DNA of 64,000 nt from a virus. Numbering within the stretch: the first letter of the stretch is position 1; each line of letters opens with the position of its first letter. The position numbers were made by a program, and so were the translations under genes. The notes under the pieces were generated by a model. It saw only the letters and a list, made by a program, of their open reading frames with translations. It made no database searches and was not told where the DNA came from. Location: the IMG/VR virus record IMGVR_UViG_3300032163_000011, positions 5,416 to 69,415 of that record; one strand, given 5' to 3'. This document shows, piece after piece, positions 6,117-64,000 of the stretch.

Positions 6117-7172
6117 TTAATCCTCCTTCTCAGTGTCGATCCCAAAAAACATCAGGGGGACGATCACCCACTTGTCCTTATCAAAGGCCTTTTCCTCTGA
6201 CCCTTTTGTATCGTCATCTTTCCAGGTCTCAGTTTTTTTGTCCGATTCTATGTCTTTTAATACCGCAACCCTATCGTCCACGCGGTATTCAGCAAAGTCA
6301 GAGGGCCGGACATCCTTGATCTCGTTTTTTCGCCACTGCACCGTGTAGGTGGGATAAGGCCGATCATCCGTGGGGTCCTGTATCTCCTTAATCACCGCCC
6401 CGGACAGGTAAACGGTATCCGCCCAATTTCCACTAAAGAGGAGGGGAGAACTTTCCTGATCCCACCAGGGTTTGTCCGGCATCAGGCGGACCCCCAAGGC
6501 TACGAATTCGCCAGGATAAGGGAATTTGGCCGGGTTGCCATTTATTTTCTCCGGGAAAGGGACCCGTACCCACCACTTCAACCCTCCGGGTTCTGGTTCC
6601 CCTTTAAGCCCGTCAATCCAGCACATGGCATATTGGGTGTCCAGGTACATATAAGTTAGCAGGGTGCGAACATCCTCGTACCCTTCAAAAAAACTATCCG
6701 GCATTGGTGAGGTGGGCTGGCCCTTGCCATCCTGGACCGGCAATTTCCCCGCTTTGTAGGCCGCCCGAGCGGAGATTTCCCCCACCAGCACCATCATTTC
6801 CGTGCACTCCATAGGGAAGCCGCAAAGAAAATCTGCGAACCCCATCACCCCCTCGCCCCCGGTGCCCTTATCTGAAAATTGAGATTCCTCGCCATATTTC
6901 TTAATTTCAAACCGTCCCAGGAAAAGAACCCGATCCTTATCAATATTAATAGGATAGATTTTAAAACGGTCGAAGAATTTATCCAGAGAATCCCCGGCCT
7001 GTGTTAAAAGGTCATCCATTTGCGGCTCTTTTCTGAAAAGCCAATAAGTAGCTTCGGGCCAAACTTCTCCAAACGAAGTATCGAAGCCATTTTCAGGGCT
7101 GGAACTTAAAAGGCCTAAATTATCATCTGCCATCTGTCTTAACCCTCCTTCTGAATCCACATATGATCCCAA
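6117..7172 (-). CDS. Hypothetical virion-module protein
   Basis: 351-aa ORF packed in the late operon; start may be MADDNL at 7133. Confidence 0.6.
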   Translation of the reverse strand: MGSYVDSEGGLRQMADDNLGLLSSSPENGFDTSFGEVWPEATYWLFRKEPQMDDLLTQAGDSLDKFFDRFKIYPINIDKDRVLFLGRFEIKKYGEESQFSDKGTGGEGVMGFADFLCGFPMECTEMMVLVGEISARAAYKAGKLPVQDGKGQPTSPMPDSFFEGYEDVRTLLTYMYLDTQYAMCWIDGLKGEPEPGGLKWWVRVPFPEKINGNPAKFPYPGEFVALGVRLMPDKPWWDQESSPLLFSGNWADTVYLSGAVIKEIQDPTDDRPYPTYTVQWRKNEIKDVRPSDFAEYRVDDRVAVLKDIESDKKTETWKDDDTKGSEEKAFDKDKWVIVPLMFFGIDTEKED

Positions 7173-11878: not shown

Positions 11879-12997
11879 TTATGTGGCTCCAGGCCAAAAG
11901 CCCGCAGTCTGAAGTTCTTCTTTGGTATGTGGGCGCGTATAAAACTTGATTTTGCTTGGATCTGTTTCATGAATACTATCAGGTTGCCGCCATGACCAAT
12001 GATTTATATTCTCATTATTAACCAAATTAACCGAGAATTTATCTTGATACTTAAACTCAGGAAATTCAAGGAAATAACCCCTTTCTCCTTCCCAAACAAA
12101 TCCTTCATCTATATCAAGGGGCGACATACCGCTATGACTTTGACCAAGCGCCTTTACTTCTTCATATAATTTTTTGGTATAAGGAGCCGCCAACACGCTA
12201 ATCATCGTAACATCATAAAACCATTCAGTCCAACGACCATCTGGATATGAAACCCAATATAATGTTCCAGGGGTATAGATTGAAAAGCTTCTATTTCTTG
12301 CACCAATGGCTTGAAAAATATACATAATAGGCCCGACTATAATAAGCCATTCAAAATATCTCTTGTCATTATAAACTGTTGATTGAGTATCATATTCCCA
12401 TGGCCCCGGACCAATGACTGTTGTTTCTATTCCTGTATCACAGATTACCTCCGATTCATTAACCAAGCCAAGGTCCATCCCGTCCGGACCCTTGCCTTCG
12501 CTATCTAAATTTCCATACATTTCCCCCTGTTTACTGCATTGGAGATAAAGTTTATGAGCTTCATCATCATAGGCTTCCAGCATCATCCGGATAATATCTT
12601 CCCCGATCCGGGGAATGCCATCCAAAAAGCCCACCACGGCAAAGGGTTTGCCATCCTGAAGCATCACCTTCACTTCATCATCAACCCGAAAACTCATCCA
12701 GGCGTTCTCAAAATATTTCTCATCCTGATTAATGTCCTGGGCTTTATGGTCCTCAGTGTCCCAATACTGCTTCCGTGGGTGATAAAAGAGGGGGATGAAG
12801 TCGGACTCTCCAACCCCCTCAATCTCCACCTTCACCATTGATTCAACCCTGAAGGGATCATCCGGATTATCAACGGCGGGACGCTTAAAATCCGTGATAA
12901 CCCCCTTGGCATAGCTCACCTGGCAGACCGTTGGGAAGTCCGGGTGATCAATTCTCCAGCTATCCGGAGATTTTTCGACGACGGCCAGTTCGGTCAT
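11879..12997 (-). CDS. Hypothetical virion-module protein with AT-rich C-terminal part
   Basis: 372-aa ORF; composition shifts at about 12560. Confidence 0.6.
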   Translation of the reverse strand: MTELAVVEKSPDSWRIDHPDFPTVCQVSYAKGVITDFKRPAVDNPDDPFRVESMVKVEIEGVGESDFIPLFYHPRKQYWDTEDHKAQDINQDEKYFENAWMSFRVDDEVKVMLQDGKPFAVVGFLDGIPRIGEDIIRMMLEAYDDEAHKLYLQCSKQGEMYGNLDSEGKGPDGMDLGLVNESEVICDTGIETTVIGPGPWEYDTQSTVYNDKRYFEWLIIVGPIMYIFQAIGARNRSFSIYTPGTLYWVSYPDGRWTEWFYDVTMISVLAAPYTKKLYEEVKALGQSHSGMSPLDIDEGFVWEGERGYFLEFPEFKYQDKFSVNLVNNENINHWSWRQPDSIHETDPSKIKFYTRPHTKEELQTAGFWPGAT

Positions 12998-26565: not shown

Positions 26566-26919
26566 TTATTCGATGAAAGCCGATAAGCGTGGCCCCAACT
26601 TCCTACGGGCTACCTTCTCAGCTATGATCGGCTTGAACTCCAGGGTATTTCTGACAGCCATGATCGGGGCTGCCAACGCCTGACAGACCGAATCGGCCTC
26701 CGCCAGTTCCAGGAGTCGGTTGCGGTAACTTTGCAACCACACCTTGAGCATCTGGCTGTTCTGGTGCAATTCGGCGGTAATCTGCCAGGAGTCCATGATG
26801 GTCTTCTCCAGTCTGGAGACGACCTTGGCCCGCTCCTCGTCCACCTTGGGGACCCTGGGCCGGCCTGTGGTCATGTCAATATCGACGCCACTGGAGCCCA
26901 TAGGCTGATCAGCACTCAT
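26566..26919 (-). CDS. Hypothetical protein between portal and scaffold
   Basis: 117 aa, ATGA overlap with portal. Confidence 0.65.
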   Translation of the reverse strand: MSADQPMGSSGVDIDMTTGRPRVPKVDEERAKVVSRLEKTIMDSWQITAELHQNSQMLKVWLQSYRNRLLELAEADSVCQALAAPIMAVRNTLEFKPIIAEKVARRKLGPRLSAFIE

Positions 26920-28922
26920 TGGACCTCTCCTGGGGCCGGTTCCTGCCCAACCGCCCCGGCCTGCGCTGTATAGAGGCCGGCCTGCGCCTCGTTGGCCAAC
27001 CCTTCGCCCCTGGCCTTCTCTGCCAGAGCAGCATCCTTGGCGGCCTTGGCTTCAGCTCCTGCCGCGGTGGCGGCCTCGGTCCCGGCCTGATGGCCGACCT
27101 GCGCTTCCTGCTGCTCCTGCTGGGCGTCGTCGATGGCCTTAGCCCTATTCGGGTCGATGAGAATGCCTTCGTCTTCGAGGTTGAGCCGCTTTTCCAGCGA
27201 CTTCAGCAAGGCGTAGGGTTTGATGTACGGGATGAAAGTGTTGCCCAATTCAAACAGGGGGAGGATCAATTTCGAGATGGCGTTGATAATCTCCTGGTTA
27301 CGCATCAAAGAGGCAACACCGGAGACCTTGAAAGAGCCGGAGGTGAGATGGGGCATCCGCAGGCCGGTGGGCTCATCATTATCCCGGTATTTATTGGCGA
27401 CCTCCTCACCCATCATCATCGCCAGTTCTTTATAGGTGAGGTTGATGGCCACCGTCTCATAGCCGGCCACGATAGCGTTCAGGGCCCCGTCCTCCAGGTT
27501 CTCACCCATGAGGCCCACCACCGTCATGGACTGCTCCAGGTTTTGGGACGACTCCGTGGCGGTCACTTCGGCACGGTAGCCGGGGAGACCCTGGGCGGCA
27601 TAATTGATCATCACGCCTTCCTGGAACCTCTGATCCCCAAAATTCATGTTGGCCAGCACTTCACCGGTATTGGACCGGCGATCCACGGTGCGCACCACCT
27701 GTTGGCCCTGCTGGGTCCCTTGGGTCAGCCATAACTTCCCGGGGTAATCGTCCAGATCGTCTTGGTCCTGCAAAGAAGAGAGGTCAATTTCCGAAGCCGG
27801 GTTGACGATCCAGTTGAGATTATCCACATGCAGGGAGAGCAGGGAGCACATCATGTACCAGAGGCTCTTGATGCCCTGCAGGAGGGACCGGCCATCGAAG
27901 CGAAGTAGGTGCGGCAAAGGGGAAAAGCCGACCCCGGGCCAGCGCAGGGAGGGGTAGGGGCTCACCTTGGGAAGCCGCACCACCCGGTTGCCGACCACGG
28001 TGAAGGTGGAGTTGGGGAGCAATAATTCACCCCGTTTATCCAGAGTCGTGCCCCAGAACTCCGAAGTCAGTACCTTGGTGCGGAATTTGGATTGCTGCCA
28101 GAGCATGTCCTGGCGCCGCTTGATCTCTTCTGGTTCGAGGTCGGGATTGTCCTTCGCACTTCCCCAGGAGCCCCCGGGCCCGCATTGCGGGATGTTGAGC
28201 ATCTGGCCCGACTTCTCCATTTCCTTCAGGTCGTAATAGTCAAGCCATTCCTGGTGAATCCAATACATGCCGCTCTGGGGTGACCGGCTGAGGGCGTCGG
28301 GGTCCCGCTGGATATGCCAGGGGGGCACCAGTATGTATCGCAACCCCTTCCCCGGAATCCATTGCGGGATCATATCCATGGACTGCCCCACCGCGGCCCC
28401 CATCCCCGTGGCGTCGGTGAACTGAATGGGGAAGTTGGAATAACTCCGGGACAACATCAACTCCATGAGTTTCCGGATGAAGTCGGCGTCCTCTTTGTTT
28501 TGCTCGTTTTCGATGCTGAGAAATTTTGGATCGAAGGCTTTCCGCACAATGGCCAAGAAGAATTGGACCGAAGAGTACGGCTTGGGCACCACCACCCGGG
28601 ACTGCCAGGATTCTTTCAGCGTGTAGGACGGGGGCTCTTTCTCGTTGTAGATTTCCCAACACTCCTGCTGCTGCTCCCGGATGGGCTTCATGCTGTCCGT
28701 GGATATATTGACGCAATCGTCCAGGAAGCGAACGAAGTGAGTCTCGTCCTCACCGGCGTAGGCCTGAGCCGCTTCTTCCCGCTCCTTCAACTCTTTCTGG
28801 TCCATGTCCTCATTAGTTTTCGGCTGAGAGGACTTCACCTCAAGCTGATTGCGGGAGGCCTGGACTGCGACGGCCGGGTCTTCTATGGGCGGGTCTTCTA
28901 TGGGCGGTTTGACTCTGGGCAT
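26916..28922 (-). CDS. Portal protein
   Basis: 668 aa; WQSRVVVPK, YPGKLW, TATESSQ motifs; located between TerL and scaffold. Confidence 0.85.
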   Translation of the reverse strand: MPRVKPPIEDPPIEDPAVAVQASRNQLEVKSSQPKTNEDMDQKELKEREEAAQAYAGEDETHFVRFLDDCVNISTDSMKPIREQQQECWEIYNEKEPPSYTLKESWQSRVVVPKPYSSVQFFLAIVRKAFDPKFLSIENEQNKEDADFIRKLMELMLSRSYSNFPIQFTDATGMGAAVGQSMDMIPQWIPGKGLRYILVPPWHIQRDPDALSRSPQSGMYWIHQEWLDYYDLKEMEKSGQMLNIPQCGPGGSWGSAKDNPDLEPEEIKRRQDMLWQQSKFRTKVLTSEFWGTTLDKRGELLLPNSTFTVVGNRVVRLPKVSPYPSLRWPGVGFSPLPHLLRFDGRSLLQGIKSLWYMMCSLLSLHVDNLNWIVNPASEIDLSSLQDQDDLDDYPGKLWLTQGTQQGQQVVRTVDRRSNTGEVLANMNFGDQRFQEGVMINYAAQGLPGYRAEVTATESSQNLEQSMTVVGLMGENLEDGALNAIVAGYETVAINLTYKELAMMMGEEVANKYRDNDEPTGLRMPHLTSGSFKVSGVASLMRNQEIINAISKLILPLFELGNTFIPYIKPYALLKSLEKRLNLEDEGILIDPNRAKAIDDAQQEQQEAQVGHQAGTEAATAAGAEAKAAKDAALAEKARGEGLANEAQAGLYTAQAGAVGQEPAPGEVQ

Positions 28923-29456: not shown

Positions 29457-29705
29457 TCATTTCTCCCATTGAATTTGGTCATAACCCCGACGATAGGCCT
29501 CGGAGGTATGCCGGGCACACGCCAGGTCGCCAGTCGGTCTCGGGGGTTCTCCAGACCAACCGTTCTCCGGGATGGCAAACCGACCATCCACGATGTTCCG
29601 GAAGCCCTCCCGGCCCACATTGTTGTTAGCCTCGTCCCGGCCCTCGAAGACCTGTACCTCTTTCCAGCCGGCAAAGCCGGAAGTTCTGTCGTCCATGCCC
29701 ATTAC
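29457..29705 (-). CDS. Small hypothetical protein
   Basis: 3' part of ORF 29457..29837 (MGMDDRTS...SEAYRRGYDQIQWEK), starting at the terL end. Confidence 0.5.
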   Translation of the reverse strand, partial: VMGMDDRTSGFAGWKEVQVFEGRDEANNNVGREGFRNIVDGRFAIPENGWSGEPPRPTGDLACARHTSEAYRRGYDQIQWEK

Positions 29706-31138
29706 CGCATCCCTCCCATTCCATAACTTCTGGCCCGGTTGAGGGCCTTGGCTGCCCGGGCCTGCGTTTTCCGTTTCGACACATAGGAAATTTTGGAAGG
29801 AAGAAGAACGCACACCGAACTGGCCCAGGCATCGCACGGATGGCTGGCCTCGTCTTTGTGAGGGACGCTACTGGTGCGCTTTCCTTGGTTGTTGAGGTGG
29901 TAGTGCCAGGAACCGGAGAGGCCCCGGTCCAGGATCCGGTTGTCGGCCGAGAGCAGGATCATGGGCTCACCCCGGGCGTCGGAATCCCGCAACACAGACC
30001 GGATGTGCCGCTCGATCATCGACCACTCTCGGGGGCCCGGCTCAAAAAAAGCACCAGGGAAGAACTTCTCGACCTCCCTGGCCGCGCTCTTCAGCTTGTT
30101 AGACTGGTCCATGTTCTTCATAGTGGGATCACCACCGATCCGCCAAGCCTTGGCCTTGCCCTTCCACCGCGGACTTTCCAGGAGGGGGATGACCTGCAAT
30201 TCCATGAGGGTGATGATGTCGGAACCGGAGAGTCGGACGGTATCCAGGAAGATGAGGCGGTTCATGTTGGTAATCTGGCCCAGGACACAGCTTGGGTTTG
30301 ACCAAGAATCGAAGAAGGCGAAGGACACCAGGCCCGGGGCCGGGATCAAGCGGTTGGGGGAGAGGTGGCGCTGCTGATTGTAGCCCGGCGTGACCGGGGC
30401 GCCCGGGTCGATTTTGGCAAACTTGCCCAGGACATAACGGTCGTAAGAGGCCTTGTCGTTCTCGTACATCTTCATGGCGGCCTGGCGGGACTCGTCCTTG
30501 AGGTGAAAGTTCTCGCCATAGGGCACATGCCAAACCTTTTTCCGGATGAGGGGGTATCTGGCGTCGATGTCGGGTTCTTCGATGAAACGCCGGTAGGTCC
30601 AATGGTCTTCATCGGCCGGGTTCATATCCACCAGCAGCCGGCCCGGGGTTCCGGTGTGTCTGACGCATCGGATAACCGAGTTGTTGTAAACATCTTCTGA
30701 GAGCCCGGCGTTCACCCTGTCGGCGGTGGCCATGGGGGCGGGCTCGTTGAGCCAGATCAGGGACCAGGCCGAGGAGCCCTGTAATTTTCCCAAACTGGCC
30801 GAGTCGTCCAGGCCGAAGAGATCCACCTGAATCCGCAGGCCATTGACGTTGATGGTCAGTTCCTTAAATTCGTTCTTGAAAGCGATGGCCTGGGGACAGT
30901 CTTGAAAGAACTCTTGGAAAGAAGGGACGATACTCAGTTTGATGTTTTCCAGGGTATCTCGAATAATGGCAGCCCGGATAGGCTGACCACAACGCTTCGC
31001 ATGGCTTAATAAAGCACCAATACAACCAAAGGTCTTACCCTCCCCTAATGAAGCGATAAGAATAGTGATGGTTTCGTGCGAGTCGATGAAGTTTTTTACC
31101 GTTGGAGAGAAGACAATTTTCCGCTCGGTGCTACCCAT
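29702..31138 (-). CDS. terL: Terminase large subunit
   Basis: Walker A ASLGEGKT, Walker B LIWLNE, DMNP coupling motif, nuclease motif SHPCDA. Confidence 0.85.
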   Translation of the reverse strand: MGSTERKIVFSPTVKNFIDSHETITILIASLGEGKTFGCIGALLSHAKRCGQPIRAAIIRDTLENIKLSIVPSFQEFFQDCPQAIAFKNEFKELTINVNGLRIQVDLFGLDDSASLGKLQGSSAWSLIWLNEPAPMATADRVNAGLSEDVYNNSVIRCVRHTGTPGRLLVDMNPADEDHWTYRRFIEEPDIDARYPLIRKKVWHVPYGENFHLKDESRQAAMKMYENDKASYDRYVLGKFAKIDPGAPVTPGYNQQRHLSPNRLIPAPGLVSFAFFDSWSNPSCVLGQITNMNRLIFLDTVRLSGSDIITLMELQVIPLLESPRWKGKAKAWRIGGDPTMKNMDQSNKLKSAAREVEKFFPGAFFEPGPREWSMIERHIRSVLRDSDARGEPMILLSADNRILDRGLSGSWHYHLNNQGKRTSSVPHKDEASHPCDAWASSVCVLLPSKISYVSKRKTQARAAKALNRARSYGMGGMR

Positions 31139-31250
31139 GCCTTCTTTGTTACCCTCAAAAATAAAAAAAGAAAGGGCCAACTTCGCCCTTGATTAATTTT
31201 ATTATCCATACTATTTGTGTTGAAATTATACGGTAGGGGGTTTATTTCCT

Positions 31251-34924: not shown

Positions 34925-36031
34925 TCAGCCATCGTGGTCTCGCATGAAAGCCTTGATAAATTCCGCCCCTACTTCCGGCGAGATGGCATTACCCGCGGCG
35001 CGCAGTCGTCCCACTCTTGCGGGAACCCTAACAGCCAAAGGGGAAAGGCCGGGTTTAGTTGGCCTGAACTTCCCGTCCCGGCAGGGGAGCCATTCGCAGG
35101 AGGACCAGAAATTTGAGCCGCTTCGTTGATTGAGAATTGTTTCTTGCTGCCGCTCGGCCTCTTTCTCGCCAAGGGATCGCTGCTGGTCCTGCCCCCGCTG
35201 CCCGAGTGCATGTCCGGTGTCAGCCACGGCGCACACTCCGCCATTTTCCTCCGGTACTGCCCCGAACTCTGGCCGTGGCTGGCTTCCGAGGTTGGCGCAC
35301 TCATCGGCGTCGGCCAAGGCGCTATGCTCCTGGCGATCTGGTCCATCCCCATCTCGTGCTTCCGGTCTCCGCCCCGGCTCCTGAAGTTGTCCACTTGCGG
35401 TGTCGGCCACGAGGCCAGTTGGGCTTGCTCCCCGAGGTAAATTGGAACCGTGTTCTGGTTCGCATTTCGCTTCCGGAAGGCCGCACATTTCTCCATCGTT
35501 GCTTCGTCCCTTACCCGATCTACCGAAGTTGGCGTGGCCCACGAACCACAATCGCTGCCTGATGTGGAACGCACCGACGCCCGCAGCGCACAAATCAGCC
35601 GCCCCAACGGCGTAACCCTCACCCTCCAAGTCATCCGAAACAAGGTCAAGCCACTCAAGGGCAGCCTTGCTCGCAACCTGTTCTCCAAAGATGACTGGAG
35701 GCCGGCAGACCCGGATGAGGTGAAACCAGTACGGCCATAGGTGCCGCTCGTCAGCAAACCCCGCTCCCCGGCCTGCCGTGCTGAAAGATTGGCAAGGGCA
35801 GGATCCGGTCCAGACGGCTTGGCCATCAGGCCACCCGGCGAGGCGTAGGGCGTAAGGCCACCCCCCAATCCCGGCAAAGAAATGACATTGGCTGTATCCC
35901 ATAAGCTCGGCTGGCGTGACATCCCTCACATCCCTCTCGTCCACTTCGCCCGGCGGAATATGACCCGCCTTAATCAGCTTCCTCAGCCACTTCGCACAGA
36001 ACGGGTCGATCTCGTTGTAGTAGGTCGTCAT
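34925..36031 (-). CDS. C5-cytosine DNA methyltransferase, main chain (permuted motif order)
   Basis: YYNEIDP precedes FFAGIGG; GSCPCQSFS, GEQV, HIRQRLWFVG; C-terminal RLRAAGNAI (motif X). Confidence 0.88.
   Translation of the reverse strand: MTTYYNEIDPFCAKWLRKLIKAGHIPPGEVDERDVRDVTPAELMGYSQCHFFAGIGGWPYALRLAGWPDGQAVWTGSCPCQSFSTAGRGAGFADERHLWPYWFHLIRVCRPPVIFGEQVASKAALEWLDLVSDDLEGEGYAVGAADLCAAGVGAFHIRQRLWFVGHANFGRSGKGRSNDGEMCGLPEAKCEPEHGSNLPRGASPTGLVADTASGQLQEPGRRPEARDGDGPDRQEHSALADADECANLGSQPRPEFGAVPEENGGVCAVADTGHALGQRGQDQQRSLGEKEAERQQETILNQRSGSNFWSSCEWLPCRDGKFRPTKPGLSPLAVRVPARVGRLRAAGNAISPEVGAEFIKAFMRDHDG
34969..35922 (-). CDS. Overlapping alternative-frame methyltransferase partner chain (true start uncertain)
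   Basis: Nested in the MTase ORF; four W(P/A/L)TP repeats and GQLNPAFPLWLLGFPQEW (motif IX-like). Confidence 0.65.
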   Translation of the reverse strand: MSRQPSLWDTANVISLPGLGGGLTPYASPGGLMAKPSGPDPALANLSARQAGERGLLTSGTYGRTGFTSSGSAGLQSSLENRLRARLPLSGLTLFRMTWRVRVTPLGRLICALRASVRSTSGSDCGSWATPTSVDRVRDEATMEKCAAFRKRNANQNTVPIYLGEQAQLASWPTPQVDNFRSRGGDRKHEMGMDQIARSIAPWPTPMSAPTSEASHGQSSGQYRRKMAECAPWLTPDMHSGSGGRTSSDPLARKRPSGSKKQFSINEAAQISGPPANGSPAGTGSSGQLNPAFPLWLLGFPQEWDDCAPRVMPSRRK

Positions 36032-36588
36032 CTATTTTTCATAAATGCCTTGTACCGGGCCGGGTTGCACCACCGCCGTACCAGCGCCCGCCACTCTTTT
36101 GTCTCTCCACAGCCGAATAATTCCTCCCTTCCCGGTGCCGCCGCACCCCCACAGCCTCAACCTTCCCCCTAATCTTCCACACTCCCACCATCCTGTCAAG
36201 TCTTTATGTCATCCCGACAGATATTTTGTGAAAAAATTATTGGGATTTCACAATCAAGGGGGGCCTCCCCTCAATGAACACCCCCCTTCCCCGGCGAATT
36301 TTTTACTATTTTCCTCGCATTTTATTCCAAATATTATTCCAGAATTATTCCTCAATACCGCCGCACCCCCATGGTTGTCACTCTTTAGAGGATGTGTCTC
36401 TTTGTCATATAAGTTTTTGGAGAAAAATGTCGGTGGGACTCATTGAATAACATAGGGGGGCCGGTACTCGGTCCCCGGGTTCGGGCTCGGGCCGGGCTGG
36501 ATGTTGGCAGGGTGGATCGCCAGGCCGGAGCGCCGAGACCGCCTGACCACGGCTTGAGGGATGATGGTAGGGGCTCTTGATAGGGTTA

Positions 36589-36683
36589 GTGGATACTTAA
36601 TCCATTAGTCGGTAATAAATAGAATAGTCTTATCAAGTAGATGGCATGGCGTCGAAGCGCTGCGAGTAGGTCGGCGAGTAGGT
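36589..36683 (+). other. Second att-like site (core plus arm tandem) for the phage integrase
   Basis: GTGGA-TACTTAA-TCCAT versus attP GTGGC-CTACGAA-TCCAT; GCGAGTAGGTCGGCGAGTAGGT at 36662-36683 is identical to 58383-58404. Confidence 0.65.
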
Positions 36684-36691
36684 CGGCTCCT

Positions 36692-37396
36692 CTAATCCCT
36701 TATCATGGCAGGCGCCGGAAGCATGGCTTGAGGCTGCGCCAACTTGCCGGGCTCCTTGATCTCCCCAGTTTCCTCCTCCCCCTGGCCGGTGATGATGAGC
36801 GTGATTCCCCCGGCACCCTCTATCACCTCACGCTGCAAACCGAGGCACTTTGCCGCCAGGCCGTAAGCGTCTGTCAATTCCTTGGTGGTCCTTGCCTTTT
36901 GACACGCTTTAAGAATGCCTTTAGCAACTGCAATTTCCCCCAAACCCACAGCACGAAAGATTTTCCGGTGATCTTCCGCCTGCTCCTCATATTTTTGGAG
37001 TATTTTCTTCGCTAATAGATATTTGTAAGTATTCGTTCCTACCTGATAACCACTCATCGACATAGCCTTGATGATACGAAATTGCATAACAAGGTGATAT
37101 TCCAGGAATTTTAGCTCTTGAGGAGTCATTTTAGATTTGGTATCATAAATATCTAATATATCTCTATTTATACCATTCCCTTTATTATATATATTATATA
37201 GATTAGAGTTTGCATCCTTAGAAGTTGGCTTAGTGGCTGTGGCTGTGGATTTGGGGCGTCCTGGGGGGCGTTTGGGTTTTGAGGTGGCCGGTTTGGGTTT
37301 AGGTGGTCTGCCTACTGGCCGTTTTTGGGAAGCTGCGAAAAAGTCAATTTCGGTCTCTTTAATCTCTTCGGTGTCGGTTTTGGTTTGGTTGTCCAT
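36692..37396 (-). CDS. terS: Terminase small subunit
   Basis: MTPQELKFLEYH...AMSMSGY...LLAKK TerS-type helix-turn-helix; N-terminal AT-hook-like GRPPK and GRPK. Confidence 0.6.
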   Translation of the reverse strand: MDNQTKTDTEEIKETEIDFFAASQKRPVGRPPKPKPATSKPKRPPGRPKSTATATKPTSKDANSNLYNIYNKGNGINRDILDIYDTKSKMTPQELKFLEYHLVMQFRIIKAMSMSGYQVGTNTYKYLLAKKILQKYEEQAEDHRKIFRAVGLGEIAVAKGILKACQKARTTKELTDAYGLAAKCLGLQREVIEGAGGITLIITGQGEEETGEIKEPGKLAQPQAMLPAPAMIRD

Positions 37397-56410: not shown

Positions 56411-56887
56411 ATGACTAAGAAACCGCTCCTAAAACCTGAGCAAGTGGCAGACCTCTTGCAGTGTAGCGTTGCCACTGTGTATGGTCATGCTGCTGCCTTG
56501 GGTGGATTCTACCCAGGTCCGATTAAAATCCTAAGATTCAAAGAGGCCGATATTGTCTCCATCATGGCGGGAAAACAACAAGTGGCGCCACCAGTTCCAA
56601 TACCTGGGGAAGAGGTACAGCAAGAGCAACTTTCACACCAAAAAGGCCGGCGAACGCTGGGAGGTCCTGAAACTGGCGGAACTGGAGGCGGAAGCGAAGA
56701 CGCCACCATCGGCGAAGACGCCATCCGCTTCGGCCTCCGAGGTACTGACCCTGGAAACCCTGATGGTGAAGTACCTCCGCCTGGCCGAAAGAGGGCTCGC
56801 CGAAACGACCTTGAGTTATCGAAAGAGCGTGTTTCGCCGCTTCCTGGCTCATGTCGGGGATGGCCCGATCTTGACCTTGACCCCTGA
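56411..56887 (+). CDS. Excisionase-like HTH protein overlapping the integrase
   Basis: LLKPEQVADLLQCSVATVY...LRFKEADI. Confidence 0.7.
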   Translation: MTKKPLLKPEQVADLLQCSVATVYGHAAALGGFYPGPIKILRFKEADIVSIMAGKQQVAPPVPIPGEEVQQEQLSHQKGRRTLGGPETGGTGGGSEDATIGEDAIRFGLRGTDPGNPDGEVPPPGRKRARRNDLELSKERVSPLPGSCRGWPDLDLDP

Positions 56888-57647
56888 GCAGGTGGAGGAT
56901 TACCTGCTGACCAGCCCCTCGAACCACAATTTCAATAAGCAGCGCACCGAGATCATGCGCCTCTTTTCCTGGGCCCTCCGGCGCCAGATGGTGCCCCACA
57001 ACCCGGTCTTCCTGGTGGAGAAGTTGTCGGTCGAGCGAAAGAAGAAGGTAATCCCGGTTCCCCAGGACATGGCGAAGATCCTGATGGCAGCCGGCCCCGA
57101 CCGGCCCCTGCTCCTGGTCCTGTTCCACACCATGGCCCGGATCGACGAGATCCTGCGGCTCAAGTGGGAAGATGTGAACTTCCAGGAGAAGGCCGTGCGC
57201 CTCTGGACCCGCAAGCGCCGGGGTGGGAATTGGGAGTTCGATTGGCTACCGATGAACGAGGACCTGGAGGCGGTCCTGTGGGGCCTCTGGCAGAAGAAAG
57301 AACAGGACGAATGGGTCTTCTTCAACCAGCGCCAGGGCACCCGCTACCTCTACCGGCCAAAGCTCATGGGGACCATCTGCAAGCGCGCCGGGGTGGATAA
57401 ATTTGGGTTTCATGTAATAAGACACTTTGTTGCGAGTTATCTTTATGACATTAAAAAGATTTCTTTGCCGGTGATTTCAAAGTTACTTAGGCATAAGAAC
57501 TTATCGACTACAGAAATTTATCTCAGAGCTATTGATCCGCATTTTCGAGAAGCGATGAAACTTCTCGAAGGTAATTTTATGGAAGGATTGAGCGAGGTAA
57601 CAAATGAAAGAAATTTGGAAACCGATTCTAAGTTGTCCAGGGTATGA
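56553..57647 (+). CDS. int: Tyrosine integrase
   Basis: TMARIDEI (R), HVIRH (HxxR), LLRH, TTEIY (catalytic Y); N-terminal arm-binding domain. Confidence 0.93.
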   Translation: MSPSWRENNKWRHQFQYLGKRYSKSNFHTKKAGERWEVLKLAELEAEAKTPPSAKTPSASASEVLTLETLMVKYLRLAERGLAETTLSYRKSVFRRFLAHVGDGPILTLTPEQVEDYLLTSPSNHNFNKQRTEIMRLFSWALRRQMVPHNPVFLVEKLSVERKKKVIPVPQDMAKILMAAGPDRPLLLVLFHTMARIDEILRLKWEDVNFQEKAVRLWTRKRRGGNWEFDWLPMNEDLEAVLWGLWQKKEQDEWVFFNQRQGTRYLYRPKLMGTICKRAGVDKFGFHVIRHFVASYLYDIKKISLPVISKLLRHKNLSTTEIYLRAIDPHFREAMKLLEGNFMEGLSEVTNERNLETDSKLSRV

Positions 57648-58131
57648 AGCATCAAGTCTTGGCAGAATACGATCTTTTTGGAAATTCGTAGGTCCAGGGC
57701 CACGTTTATTAAGCGATCAACCTCAACGGATATTGGCCCGATGGTTAGATAATTGTGGATATTATAGAGTTCAGATTAAAAATGGCAATAAAACTATTCA
57801 TCGCTTAGTTGCAGAAGCATTTAGGGGGCCATGTCCGCCAGGGCAACAATGCCGGCATTTGGATGGAGTTCGTACAAATGTAGATGAAACTAATTTATGC
57901 TGGGGTACTTTTGAAGAACAAGGGATTGATAAAATAAAACATGACAACAATGGCAATAGAATCCGTGGCGAAAAACAATGGAAGGCCAAACTGACTGCCA
58001 GTGAGGTCAAAGAAATCAGAGAACTTTATACCCAGGGGGGTTATTCTCAACCCCAACTTGGAAGAATATTTGGCGTTTCTCATACTCAAATCGGTTATGT
58101 GGTTCATCATAAAAGCTGGGCGCACATTTAA
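57604..58131 (+). CDS. NUMOD4-HNH homing endonuclease
   Basis: EIWKPI...YEASSLGRIRS; IHRLVAEAFRGPCPPGQQCRHLDG...NLCWGT. Confidence 0.9.
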   Translation: MKEIWKPILSCPGYEASSLGRIRSFWKFVGPGPRLLSDQPQRILARWLDNCGYYRVQIKNGNKTIHRLVAEAFRGPCPPGQQCRHLDGVRTNVDETNLCWGTFEEQGIDKIKHDNNGNRIRGEKQWKAKLTASEVKEIRELYTQGGYSQPQLGRIFGVSHTQIGYVVHHKSWAHI

Positions 58132-58200: not shown

Positions 58201-58454
58201 GGCGAGTAGGTCTTGGGTAGGTCTGAGCATACTAAAACCGAAACAACCACACGCCCTGGAAAGTCGATGTGCCAACCATGCTTATTTAAGGGGTTTACCG
58301 TATTGGTGTTGTGGCCTACGAATCCATGTGTCGGGGGTTCAAATCCCTCCGGGCGCGCCACTTCCAGGAATAGCGAATTTCGGCGAGTAGGTCGGCGAGT
58401 AGGTGATGAACTCCAATAAAATAATTAACACTTATCTTGTAAACTTCCTACTCG
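58201..58454 (+). other. attP: core plus arm-type repeats
   Basis: GGCGAGTAGGTC 58201-12, TTGGGTAGGTC 58213-23, tandem at 58382-58404, inverted CCTACTCG 58447-54, flanking the tRNA fragment downstream of int. Confidence 0.8.
58316..58360 (+). tRNA. 3' half of tRNA-Arg(ACG); attP identity segment, not a complete tRNA
   Basis: CT-ACG-AA anticodon loop, T arm GGGGG-TTCAAAT-CCCTC, acceptor CGGGCGC-G-CCA; no D arm or 5' acceptor strand. Confidence 0.85.
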
Positions 58455-58485
58455 GGTTCAAGAATTTTGAGGCGGGTTCAAATTA

Positions 58486-58758
58486 TTGGACGGGAGGTGT
58501 AATTTGAGAAAACAGTTCTTTTTGAAAGTATATCTGAGTTGGAATCCGCAATATCCAAAAAGAAAAACAGAGGACACAAGTGGGACCTGTGCCTTTTGCG
58601 GAGAACGCGCCAATCGAACCGCTTCACTCTACACAGAATATGGAAAATTGCTTTTTGAGGACATCTGTAAAAATTGTGCTGAGAACCTGCCCGCGCCAAA
58701 AATAAAGAACCTCAAAGAGTTTTACTCTTTTTTAGCTGTTTATCCTGAAGGGGAATAG
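58486..58758 (+). CDS. Small CxxC protein
   Basis: CAFCG...ICKNC; likely TTG start at 58504 after GGAGG. Confidence 0.5.
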   Translation: MDGRCNLRKQFFLKVYLSWNPQYPKRKTEDTSGTCAFCGERANRTASLYTEYGKLLFEDICKNCAENLPAPKIKNLKEFYSFLAVYPEGE

Positions 58759-63309: not shown

Positions 63310-64000
63310 TTAGTTAGTCGTCACCGTCAGCCATTTCTTGGTCGGGTTGACATTGCAACTATCGTGCGTCAGTTCGTAGGCCCATTCCTTCCCCGCAACC
63401 GGCGGGCAGTGGGCTTGATAGGTGCCGGATGGGGCCGCATTGTTGCCAGCCACATTGATTGTACCGTTTGCTACCGTCCGGGTGGCAAAAGAGGCATACA
63501 ACCCCTGAAGGACGGCATCTACCTGGGCTTGAGTAAGGCTGTTGCCTTGGATAGAGAGATTTGTCGTAGTAGTCCAAGCCGAAAAATCAGCAGCAGCCAC
63601 GGTTAACGGAAGCATGCCGGCAGGTAGACTATAGCAATACCAGTACGTCGGTCTCCAGGCAGACATATCAGCGCTGTTGATGACACCGGTGAAACCGGCA
63701 GGCAGATTTAAGCAATACCAGTACGTCGGTCTCCAGGCAGACATATCAGCGCTGTTGAGGACACCGGTGAAACCGGCAGGCAGATTTAAGCAATACCAGT
63801 ACGTCGGTCTCCAGGCAGACATATCAGCGCTGTTGATGACACCGGTGAAACCGGCAGGCAAATTATAGCAAAGCCAGTACGTCGGTCTCCAGGCAGACAT
63901 ATCAGCGCTGTTGATGACACCGGTGAAACCGGCAGGTAGACCATAGCATTCCCAGTACGTCGGCCTCCAGGCAGACATATCAGCGCTGTTGAGGACACCG
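63310..64000 (-). CDS. LRR-like tandem-repeat protein (5' end outside window)
   Basis: 26-aa repeats NSADMSAWRPTYWxCxxLPAGFTGV(I/L); C-cap NSLTQAQVDAVL...GNNAAPSG...WLTVTTN. Confidence 0.8.
   Translation of the reverse strand, partial: GVLNSADMSAWRPTYWECYGLPAGFTGVINSADMSAWRPTYWLCYNLPAGFTGVINSADMSAWRPTYWYCLNLPAGFTGVLNSADMSAWRPTYWYCLNLPAGFTGVINSADMSAWRPTYWYCYSLPAGMLPLTVAAADFSAWTTTTNLSIQGNSLTQAQVDAVLQGLYASFATRTVANGTINVAGNNAAPSGTYQAHCPPVAGKEWAYELTHDSCNVNPTKKWLTVTTN
63617..64000. repeat. 78-bp coding tandem repeat, about 5 units visible
   Basis: CCGGCAGG recurs at 63617, 63695, 63773, 63851 and 63929. Confidence 0.95.

What the first reader, a model, noticed from the sequence alone, without database searches (positions are those of the whole stretch)
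36584..36683. Second integrase site beside terS: attP-like core and arms but a different overlap, suggesting Int doubles as a Cre/lox-like circularisation recombinase
Seen: core GTGGA-TACTTAA-TCCAT (36589-36605) mirrors attP GTGGC-CTACGAA-TCCAT (58311-58327). The 22-bp arm tandem GCGAGTAGGTCGGCGAGTAGGT is identical (36662-83 and 58383-404) and starts 61 versus 60 bp after the start of TCCAT. An IHF-like TATCAAGTAGATG lies between core and arm. No tRNA sequence or clear left arm is present. Established: tyrosine integrases need matching 7-bp overlaps, so this site should not recombine with attP or attB but could with a copy of itself; pac often lies in or near terS; P1 circularises via loxP in its terminal redundancy. 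Inference: one integrase with two orthogonal sites, one for integration and one for circularising redundant virion DNA or resolving dimers. Alternatives are an Int-bound regulatory site or a relic. I do not know of this arrangement being described.
Basis: partly seen in the sequence, partly recalled or inferred. Interest (0 to 1): 0.88.

Follow-up and report, generated by a model that had tools for sequence, protein, structure and literature searches.

The report
Second integrase site beside small terminase
A temperate phage of sulfate-reducer-type bacteria carries, just after its likely small-terminase gene, a conserved second docking site for its own integrase; the site looks built to recombine, but its job has not been tested.

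Summary
The window is a 69-kb temperate phage with a circular map and one tyrosine integrase. Its attP holds the 3' part of tRNA-Arg(ACG).

Site 2 (36583-36685) repeats the right half of attP:
- the same 22-bp tandem arm site;
- two inverted core half-sites, GTGGA and TCCAT, around a different 7-bp spacer;
- the same core-to-arm distance (61 vs 60 bp);
- an IHF-like box in between.

A different phage (contig L251, neighbouring protein 73% identical) has the same site at the same place. Arms match 21/22 and the core block 27/29, with no indel. The DNA between is only 22/50 identical, and both core changes fall inside the 7-bp spacer. So the site is under selection, not a relic.

The neighbouring gene is a distant small-terminase relative. 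I found no partner with the same spacer in the phage and none in 83 Desulfobaccales genomes, which do hold the attP tRNA.

Best reading: an attL-like Int/IHF assembly site that recombines only with a copy of itself, circularising or monomerising phage DNA (about 0.38). The main rival is an Int-bound regulator of packaging genes (about 0.3). Termini and Int activity could not be tested. Earlier scan notes report recombinase sites beside terS on other DNA.

The parts
36583..36611 (+). Conserved core block of site 2: GGGTTA-GTGGA-TACTTAA-TCCAT-TAGTCG. Two inverted core-type half-sites lie around a 7-bp spacer (17-mer at 36589-36605).
   Evidence: 27 of 29 positions are identical in relative L251, and both changes fall inside the 7-bp spacer (TACTTAA vs TAGTCAA).
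36631..36643 (+). IHF-like box TATCAAGTAGATG between core and arms. It has one mismatch to WATCAANNNNTTR (consensus recalled from memory).
   Evidence: At the aligned position L251 reads TATCAATGCCTTA, a perfect match. The chance of an exact match anywhere in the 50-nt spacer is about 6e-4.
36662..36685 (+). Tandem arm-type sites (2 x GCGAGTAGGTCG), identical to the P' arm of attP.
   Evidence: 21 of 22 positions are identical in L251.
36692..37396 (-). TerS-like gene (234 aa). Its stop codon lies 8 bp from the arm tandem.
   Evidence: transitive match to phrog_51; Terminase_2 in the nearest Atlas clusters. It has no direct family hit.
36032..36691 (.). About 660 bp without a convincing gene, lying between the TerS-like gene and the DNA methyltransferase gene. 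It contains site 2 and a G+C-rich stretch (36455-36575).
   Evidence: only low-complexity frames. No Rfam match. No promoter-like site on the minus strand and no terminator-like site in the gap.
56553..57647 (+). The only tyrosine integrase gene of the genome.
   Evidence: PF00589 at E 6.9e-19. It is the single PF00589 match in the whole record. Its relatives sit at tRNA att sites with the same arm motif.
58202..58223 (+). P arm of attP (GCGAGTAGGTCTTGGGTAGGTC).
   Evidence: The same layout is seen in the attR sites L186, L247, L248 and L289.
58311..58362 (+). attP core (GTGGC-CTACGAA-TCCAT) running into the 3' part of tRNA-Arg(ACG), up to CCA.
   Evidence: The 45-mer is found in 22 of 83 Desulfobaccales genomes at up to 3 mismatches. 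In 7 of the 9 loci fetched it lies within a full tRNA-Arg(ACG) gene.
58383..58404 (+). P' arm tandem of attP, identical to the site 2 arms.

Best explanation
Site 2 is a working second target of the phage's own lambda-type integrase, built like an attL. Two inverted core half-sites flank a 7-bp crossover spacer, then comes a bend (IHF-like) site, then two tandem arm sites at the same distance as in attP.

Its spacer differs from that of attP and attB, so it cannot complete exchange with them. It can recombine only with another copy of itself. Two copies meet on one molecule in the terminal redundancy of a headful started near the adjacent terS, or in a concatemer or dimer. Int would then cut out a unit-length circle: a Cre/lox-type job done by the integration enzyme.

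Shown here: the anatomy, its conservation, the lack of any other partner, and its position after the TerS-like gene.

Inferred: Int and IHF binding, self-recombination, a packaging start nearby, and the benefit to the phage.
For: - Anatomy equals the right half of attP, down to spacing.
- The arm motif is the arm site of this integrase family. Tandem GAGTAGGT sites flank tRNA-derived cores next to related integrase genes in Desulfobaccales genomes, at tRNA-SeC, Arg(TCT), Arg(CCT), Arg(ACG) and Ala(CGC). One such integrase is 67.5% identical in protein over 280 aa.
- Phylogenetic footprint in L251: arms 21/22, core block 27/29, no indel between them. The spacer DNA is 22/50 and the left flank 28/53 identical. 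At a background identity of 0.49, p is about 4e-7 for the core and 3e-6 for the arms.
- The only two core changes lie inside the 7-bp spacer, as expected if only identity between two copies of the same site matters.
- A relative in another study's run (X2) aligns over 36571-36673. One of its contigs runs on after 36687 with a further GAGTAGGT.
- No other site in the genome pairs core-type half-sites with the spacer TACTTAA. 0 of 83 Desulfobaccales genomes hold the 17-mer at up to 1 mismatch. In the same genomes the attP tRNA 45-mer is found in 22 of 83.
- Only one tyrosine recombinase is encoded.
- The site follows a TerS-like gene by 8-10 bp in both phages.
- In lambda attL, IHF at H' bends the P' arm so that two Ints bridge P'1-C' and P'2-B. 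That means two arm sites and two core half-sites, as here (PMC4880445, passages read).
Against: - No experiment or read-level data: termini, redundancy and packaging mode are unknown.
- The phage has a RecT-family gene, which could circularise redundant ends without Int.
- Only the first headful of a series would carry the site at both ends.
- Lambda-type Int normally needs an attR-type partner and Xis to act on attL. That pairs of attL sites recombine is my recollection of the bent-L/straight-L work; I saw only its citation.
- 20 more distant TerS-like loci from 17 of 83 Desulfobaccales genomes show no such site. Nor does the one complete prophage with a related integrase, though it shares only the integrase with this phage.
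- Only one relative shows the core.
Confidence: 0.38

Rival explanations
1. Regulatory nucleoprotein complex. Int (with a bending protein) assembles on site 2 without recombining. There it controls packaging or late genes, for example by blocking read-through from terS into the methylase-to-terL genes, controlling a promoter in the 660-bp gap, or masking a nearby packaging start while Int is abundant.
For: - The site lies inside the leftward late/packaging gene string, in a 660-bp gap with no convincing gene.
- Conservation of protein-binding blocks with a free central spacer fits any dimer-binding site.
- An earlier scan note (e1-3071950, unchecked by me) reports integrase arm sites copied onto the packaging-operon start of satellites.
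- P4 Int autoregulation through arm repeats is a known precedent (recalled from memory).
Against: - Regulation by arm-type binding would not need two well-formed inverted core half-sites, a 7-bp spacer and the attP spacing. All of these are kept.
- The simple scan found no promoter-like site on the minus strand and no terminator-like site in the gap.
Confidence: 0.3
2. Packaging site. The tandem repeats, bend site and dyad are a cos- or pac-type recognition and cutting site read by the terminase, like cosB/cosN of lambda.
For: - Position next to a TerS-like gene.
- Repeats plus an IHF-like box plus a dyad resemble cosB-cosN (layout recalled from memory).
- An earlier scan note (e1-160643, unchecked) read similar repeats before a terS as TerS sites.
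Against: - The repeats are letter-for-letter the P' arm of attP.
- The dyad matches the attP core half-sites, including the flanking AATCCAT..GTCGG.
- The same arm motif marks att sites of related integrases in genomes whose prophages share nothing else with this phage.
Confidence: 0.08
3. Second attP for a secondary host site, or a docking site for another mobile element that uses the same integrase type.
For: The core and arms are intact and the spacer differs between relatives, as it would if each tracked another target.
Against: - 0 of 83 Desulfobaccales genomes hold the 17-mer at up to 1 mismatch. The tRNA target of the real attP is found in 22 of 83.
- There is no P arm and no tRNA-restoring sequence.
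- The true host genome may not be among the 83.
Confidence: 0.08
4. Decaying relic of an old att duplication or recombination event, without function.
For: There is no left arm. Weak extra similarity to attP lies left of the core.
Against: The protein-binding blocks are 93-95% conserved, while the DNA between and beside them is at 44-53% in a phage whose TerS-like protein is only 73% identical. Spacing is unchanged.
Confidence: 0.04

Closest known systems
Bacteriophage lambda attL (B-O-C' with H', P'1, P'2) and its Int/IHF intasome
   Same: - Two core-type half-sites around a 7-bp overlap.
- A bend site, then tandem arm-type sites on one side only.
- The arm sequence is unlike the core sequence and is shared with attP.
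The architecture was read in PMC4880445 (passages).
   Different: - Site 2 is carried in the free phage genome, not created by integration.
- Its spacer differs from the phage's own attP, so it has no attR-type partner.
- It lies next to a terminase gene.
Bacteriophage P1 Cre/loxP
   Same: - A tyrosine-recombinase site that would recombine with a copy of itself.
- It is placed near the packaging genes.
- The proposed job, cyclisation of redundant DNA or resolution of multimers, is the same. Cre's role in unlinking sister chromosomes was read in PMC7192630 (passage). Cyclisation and the pac-lox layout are recalled from memory.
   Different: - loxP is a simple 34-bp site with no arms and no accessory protein, served by a dedicated recombinase in a plasmid prophage.
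- Here a heterobivalent integrase that also integrates at a tRNA would do the job on an arm-bearing site.
Int-promoted attP x attP recombination in lambda and P22 (recalled from memory; no paper read)
   Same: An integrase recombines two copies of one phage site. It can circularise molecules that carry the site twice.
   Different: That uses attP itself. Here a separate site with a different spacer sits next to terS, 21.7 kb from attP.
P4 Int arm repeats used for int autoregulation (recalled from memory), and the earlier scan note e1-3071950 on satellites
   Same: Arm-type integrase sites are reused outside the att site, near packaging genes.
   Different: Those cases copy arm sites only. Site 2 keeps a full core with the attP spacing.

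Membership tests
Heterobivalent (lambda-type) tyrosine-integrase att site, attL-type layout | Two inverted core-type half-sites around a 6-8 bp overlap, matching those of the element's attP | tested here: met
   GTGGA-7-TCCAT against attP GTGGC-7-TCCAT. These are the only 2 perfect matches to GTGGNNNNNNAATCCAT in the window.
Heterobivalent (lambda-type) tyrosine-integrase att site, attL-type layout | Arm-type sites of a different sequence, shared with attP, at a fixed distance on one side | tested here: met
   Identical 22-mer, 61 vs 60 bp from TCCAT. The motif is shared by att sites of related integrases.
Heterobivalent (lambda-type) tyrosine-integrase att site, attL-type layout | Accessory bending-protein site between core and arm | tested here: inconclusive
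   One mismatch to the recalled IHF consensus in the window and a perfect match at the aligned place in L251. Binding was not tested.
Heterobivalent (lambda-type) tyrosine-integrase att site, attL-type layout | Integrase with an extra N-terminal arm-binding domain | tested here: inconclusive
   PF00589 covers residues 182-326, with a weak SAM-like hit at 77-131. No family covers the first ~75 residues. PDB matches start at residue 81 or later.
Heterobivalent (lambda-type) tyrosine-integrase att site, attL-type layout | Int binds and cleaves the site | not testable with these tools
   Needs footprinting or recombination assays.
Cre/loxP-type cyclisation or resolution system | Recombination between two identical copies of the site on one molecule | not testable with these tools
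   No joint at 36589-36605 appears in the contigs laid, but contigs cannot show this.
Cre/loxP-type cyclisation or resolution system | Site lies within the terminal redundancy, close to pac | not testable with these tools
   Only assembled contigs were available. The TerL is PF04466 but is only 21-27% identical to named phage terminases, and no solved terminase structure matched.
Cre/loxP-type cyclisation or resolution system | Simple site without arms or accessory factors, served by a dedicated recombinase | tested here: not met
   Site 2 has arm sites and an IHF-like box. The genome has a single tyrosine recombinase, the integrase.
attP (integration site with a host attB) | Core and overlap shared with a host sequence | tested here: not met
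   0 of 83 Desulfobaccales genomes match the 17-mer at up to 1 mismatch. As a positive control, the attP tRNA 45-mer is found in 22 of 83. The real host may be missing from the sample.
attP (integration site with a host attB) | Arm sites on both sides (P and P') | tested here: not met
   No arm-like match at up to 2 mismatches lies left of the core.
Terminase recognition site (cos/pac) | Virion DNA ends, or the start of the packaging series, map to the site | not testable with these tools
   No raw reads of virion DNA were available.

The most novel reading that the evidence does not exclude
One arm-binding integrase serves two sites that cannot cross-react. attP is used for insertion into tRNA-Arg. 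A terminase-proximal, attL-like site recombines only with itself, to circularise incoming terminally redundant DNA or to cut unit circles from concatemers. That would be a Cre/lox function without a second recombinase, with the spacer free to drift between related phages.
Probability: 0.3. Interest if true: 0.85.

Novelty: new variant of a known kind. Interest (0 to 1): 0.62.

Why it matters
If Int acts on site 2, directionality and partner choice in lambda-type recombination would be wider than the attP/attB and attL/attR pairs. An attL-like site would work without an attR partner. It would also link the lysogeny enzyme to genome circularisation or to control of packaging.

It would give a natural pair of orthogonal sites for one integrase, which is useful for genome engineering. 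It would add a case to what this scan keeps finding: recombinase sites placed beside terS.

Even on the regulatory reading, an integrase intasome placed after terS would be a new control point between lysogeny and packaging.

Tried and rejected
Searches for relatives:
- Close relatives in IMG/VR: none with the integrase or the TerS-like protein, alone or as an alignment. None with the core pattern or the exact arm tandem.
- GenBank phages, DNA search: no match.
Only L130 and L186 were similar to the window by blastn, and L141 and L208 carried arm-like tandems.
- The metagenome scan with alignment A2 returned 4 loci.
- L252, L253 and L261 have two tandem TerS-like genes and another gene order, so they were not comparable.
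- 20 distant TerS-like loci show no arm tandem or arm-plus-core beside terS. 14 of them were also checked for any short tandem repeat within 330 nt after the stop, and none was arm-like.
- The complete G001 prophage shares only the integrase with this phage. Its lack of an internal tandem therefore says little.

Other tests that led nowhere:
- The AlphaFold model of the TerS-like protein had mean pLDDT 43, so no fold search was run.
- Rfam: nothing in the window.
- The tRNA idea for the site 2 core was rejected. ARAGORN finds none, and neither strand gives a proper anticodon loop (my own reading of the sequence).
- Similarity to attP left of the core is not kept in L251, so I treat it as chance.
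- Run X2 (share 0.07): its core letters are not visible, because differences near the ends of aligned pieces are not listed. I claim no habitat from it.
- X1 may be the source sample, so it is not independent.

Literature:
- Searches for a described second integrase site beside terS or pac and for P22/P1 background gave no such description. This covers listings and abstracts only.
- Supplements are closed and were not asked for.

Full report
WHAT THE WINDOW IS

The window is bases 5416-69415 of a 69,415-bp virus record. The first 108 bases of the record equal its last 108 bases, inside a 78-bp tandem-repeat array, so the map is circular.

- Leftward genes include a Terminase_3 large terminase (29702-31180), a portal-like protein (26916-28922) and a DNA methyltransferase (34925-36031).
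- Other genes include a DnaB-type helicase (leftward) and, reading rightward, a RecT-family protein, a tyrosine integrase (56553-57647) and an HNH endonuclease.
- The integrase is the only PF00589 match in the record.

THE REAL attP

After int and the HNH gene come, in order:
- a P arm (58202-58223);
- the core GTGGC-CTACGAA-TCCAT (58311-58327), which runs into the 3' part of a tRNA-Arg(ACG) up to CCA (about 58362);
- the P' tandem (58383-58404).

ARAGORN finds no whole tRNA in the window, so this is the free attP form.

The 45-mer tRNA part is present in 22 of 83 Desulfobaccales genomes at up to 3 mismatches. It is exact at 9 places in 7 genomes among the rows listed. In 7 of the 9 loci I fetched it lies within a full tRNA-Arg(ACG) gene.

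One genome (G062) shows both prophage junctions:
- tRNA, then two arm sites, then an integrase gene 72% identical in DNA over 1107 bp (L290);
- a P-arm tandem plus the 3' tRNA part (L289).

Tandem GAGTAGGT sites flank tRNA-derived cores at other att sites in these genomes: tRNA-SeC, Arg(TCT), Arg(CCT) and Ala(CGC). The motif is therefore the arm site of this integrase family, and the host is probably in or near Desulfobaccales.

THE OBSERVATION

- The 22-mer occurs exactly twice in the record.
- The exact 10-mer occurs 5 times in the window, all at the two places.
- GTGGNNNNNNAATCCAT has exactly 2 perfect matches.
- The core-to-arm distance is 61 vs 60 bp.
- The chance of the 11 fixed core letters lying within +/-2 bp of the right distance from an arm tandem is about 1e-6.
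- Site 2 has no tRNA sequence and no left arm.

CONSERVATION

A metagenome scan with the family alignment gave 4 loci.

One locus, L251 (1811 bp, protein 73% identical), reaches 227 bp past the stop codon and carries the same site. In the alignment:

| Segment | Identical positions |
|---|---|
| Arm tandem | 21/22 |
| Core block 36583-36611 | 27/29 |
| DNA between arm and core | 22/50 |
| Left flank | 28/53 |
| terS 3' coding end | 86/106 |

There is no indel between arm and core. Against a background identity of 0.49, the core and arm blocks have p of about 4e-7 and 3e-6.

Both core changes lie inside the 7-bp spacer (TACTTAA vs TAGTCAA). The IHF-like box is kept in place and is a perfect match to the recalled consensus in L251.

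A second relative is present in a run from another study (X2). Its contig aligns over 36571-36673 at roughly 78%, and another contig runs on after 36687 with one more GAGTAGGT. Its core letters are not visible in the output.

More distant TerS-like genes (31-42% identical; 17 of 83 Desulfobaccales genomes; 20 loci) have no such site. The feature therefore belongs to this phage's close lineage.

WHAT IS NOT THERE

- No other place in the genome pairs core-type half-sites with the spacer TACTTAA.
- 0 of 83 Desulfobaccales genomes hold the 17-mer at up to 1 mismatch.
- There is no second tyrosine recombinase.
- The 660 bp between the TerS-like gene and the methylase gene hold only low-complexity frames and no Rfam family. 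The simple scan found no minus-strand promoter-like site and no terminator-like site there.

THE NEIGHBOUR

The 234-aa protein has no direct hit in Pfam, PHROGs or PDB, and its model is poor. However, 3 of 16 family members match phrog_51, terminase small subunit (best E 4.3e-10). The nearest ESM-Atlas clusters carry Terminase_2 in 17% and 38% of members. I accept 'TerS-like' as likely, not proven.

The packaging mode is unknown. The large terminase is only 21-27% identical to named phage terminases, and no solved terminase structure matched. Only assembled contigs of the runs were on hand.

HOW IT MOST LIKELY WORKS

The layout is that of lambda attL. There, IHF at H' bends the P' arm so that two integrase molecules bridge P'1-C' and P'2-B, and partners must have identical overlaps (PMC4880445, passages). 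Site 2 offers exactly two arm sites, a bend site and two core half-sites, but with a spacer unlike that of attP.

I infer that Int and a bending protein assemble on it. I also infer that the only productive partner is a second copy of site 2.

Two copies lie on one molecule in a concatemer. They also do so in a headful that starts in or near terS and runs in the direction of late transcription, which would put site 2 within a few hundred bases of the first end and again in the redundancy. Exchange would release a unit circle.

My evidence raises it by removing 'chance' and 'relic', but it does not test it. I give it about 0.38.

THE RIVALS

- Regulatory Int/IHF complex on the packaging or late genes: about 0.3. 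An earlier, unchecked scan note on satellites (e1-3071950) reads copied arm sites that way. Against it, a full core with attP spacing is more than a regulator needs.
- Terminase cos/pac site: about 0.08. The letters are those of the integrase's own arm and core sites.
- Second attP or docking site: about 0.08. No target was found, though the host sample is limited.
- Relic: about 0.04.

COMPARISON AND NOVELTY

Site 2 works most like lambda attL in build, and like P1 loxP in its proposed use. It is not a member of the loxP kind, because it has arms, a bend site and no dedicated recombinase.

Four literature searches (listings and abstracts only) showed no description of a second, orthogonal site for an arm-binding integrase beside terS.

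Earlier notes of this scan (e1-6179193, e1-3279772, e1-135490) describe separate recombinases with lox-like sites beside terS or cos in other phages. The general theme recurs. The variant here, where the integrase's own site is reused, was not among them.

LIMITS

- Only one relative shows the core.
- Int binding, recombination, termini and transcription are all untested.

Noticed in passing
record G000:C1 1-108 and 69308-69415 (window 63893-64000): The first 108 bases of the record equal its last 108 bases, inside a 78-bp tandem-repeat array in a gene. The 'linear' record is therefore a circular map broken in the repeats.
   Followed up: partly
window 58446-58492: Right of the P' tandem lies an inverted arm-like site (CCTACTCGG) followed by a block with two GGTTCAA motifs. 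The block is 95.7% identical, in the opposite orientation, to DNA just left of the P-arm tandem of an attR in another genome (L186 4205-4251). Similar GGTTCAA motifs precede arm tandems in L245, L247 and L248. It may be a site for an excision factor.
   Followed up: partly
window 57604-58131: An HNH/NUMOD4 homing-type endonuclease gene sits between int and attP and overlaps the int stop region.
   Followed up: no
window 36455-36575; L251 1720-1811; L262, L273, L274 downstream of terS-like genes: A G+C-rich stretch with GGCCCG-like repeats follows TerS-like genes in several related and distant loci. It has no open frame in the window. It may be a packaging signal.
   Followed up: no
L264 about 2110-2140 and L278 about 2105-2135: Two distant TerS-like loci share CAGCAGTAGACTACCA plus a short dyad right after the stop codon. 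This is a different conserved element at the same relative place.
   Followed up: no
L253 7322-8746; L252; L261: Some relatives carry two tandem paralogous TerS-like genes.
   Followed up: no
L287 (G002:C232) 6835-7064 and 12820-12864: A broken TerS-like gene (7 stop codons in the match, about 70% DNA identity to the window's) lies 6 kb from an orphan 3' part of tRNA-Arg(ACG) that has no arm sites. This is probably a decayed prophage of this lineage at the same target.
   Followed up: partly
L250 (G001:C34 about 129466) and L246 (G004:C59 about 101167): A second type of att-like junction uses the same GAGTAGGT tandem but a different, highly conserved 100-bp arm, and ends in another tRNA 3' part.
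   Followed up: no
window 36185-36470: Two weakly similar ~65-bp segments lie about 195 bp apart in the A+T-rich half of the non-coding gap, each ending in AGGGGGGCC.
   Followed up: no
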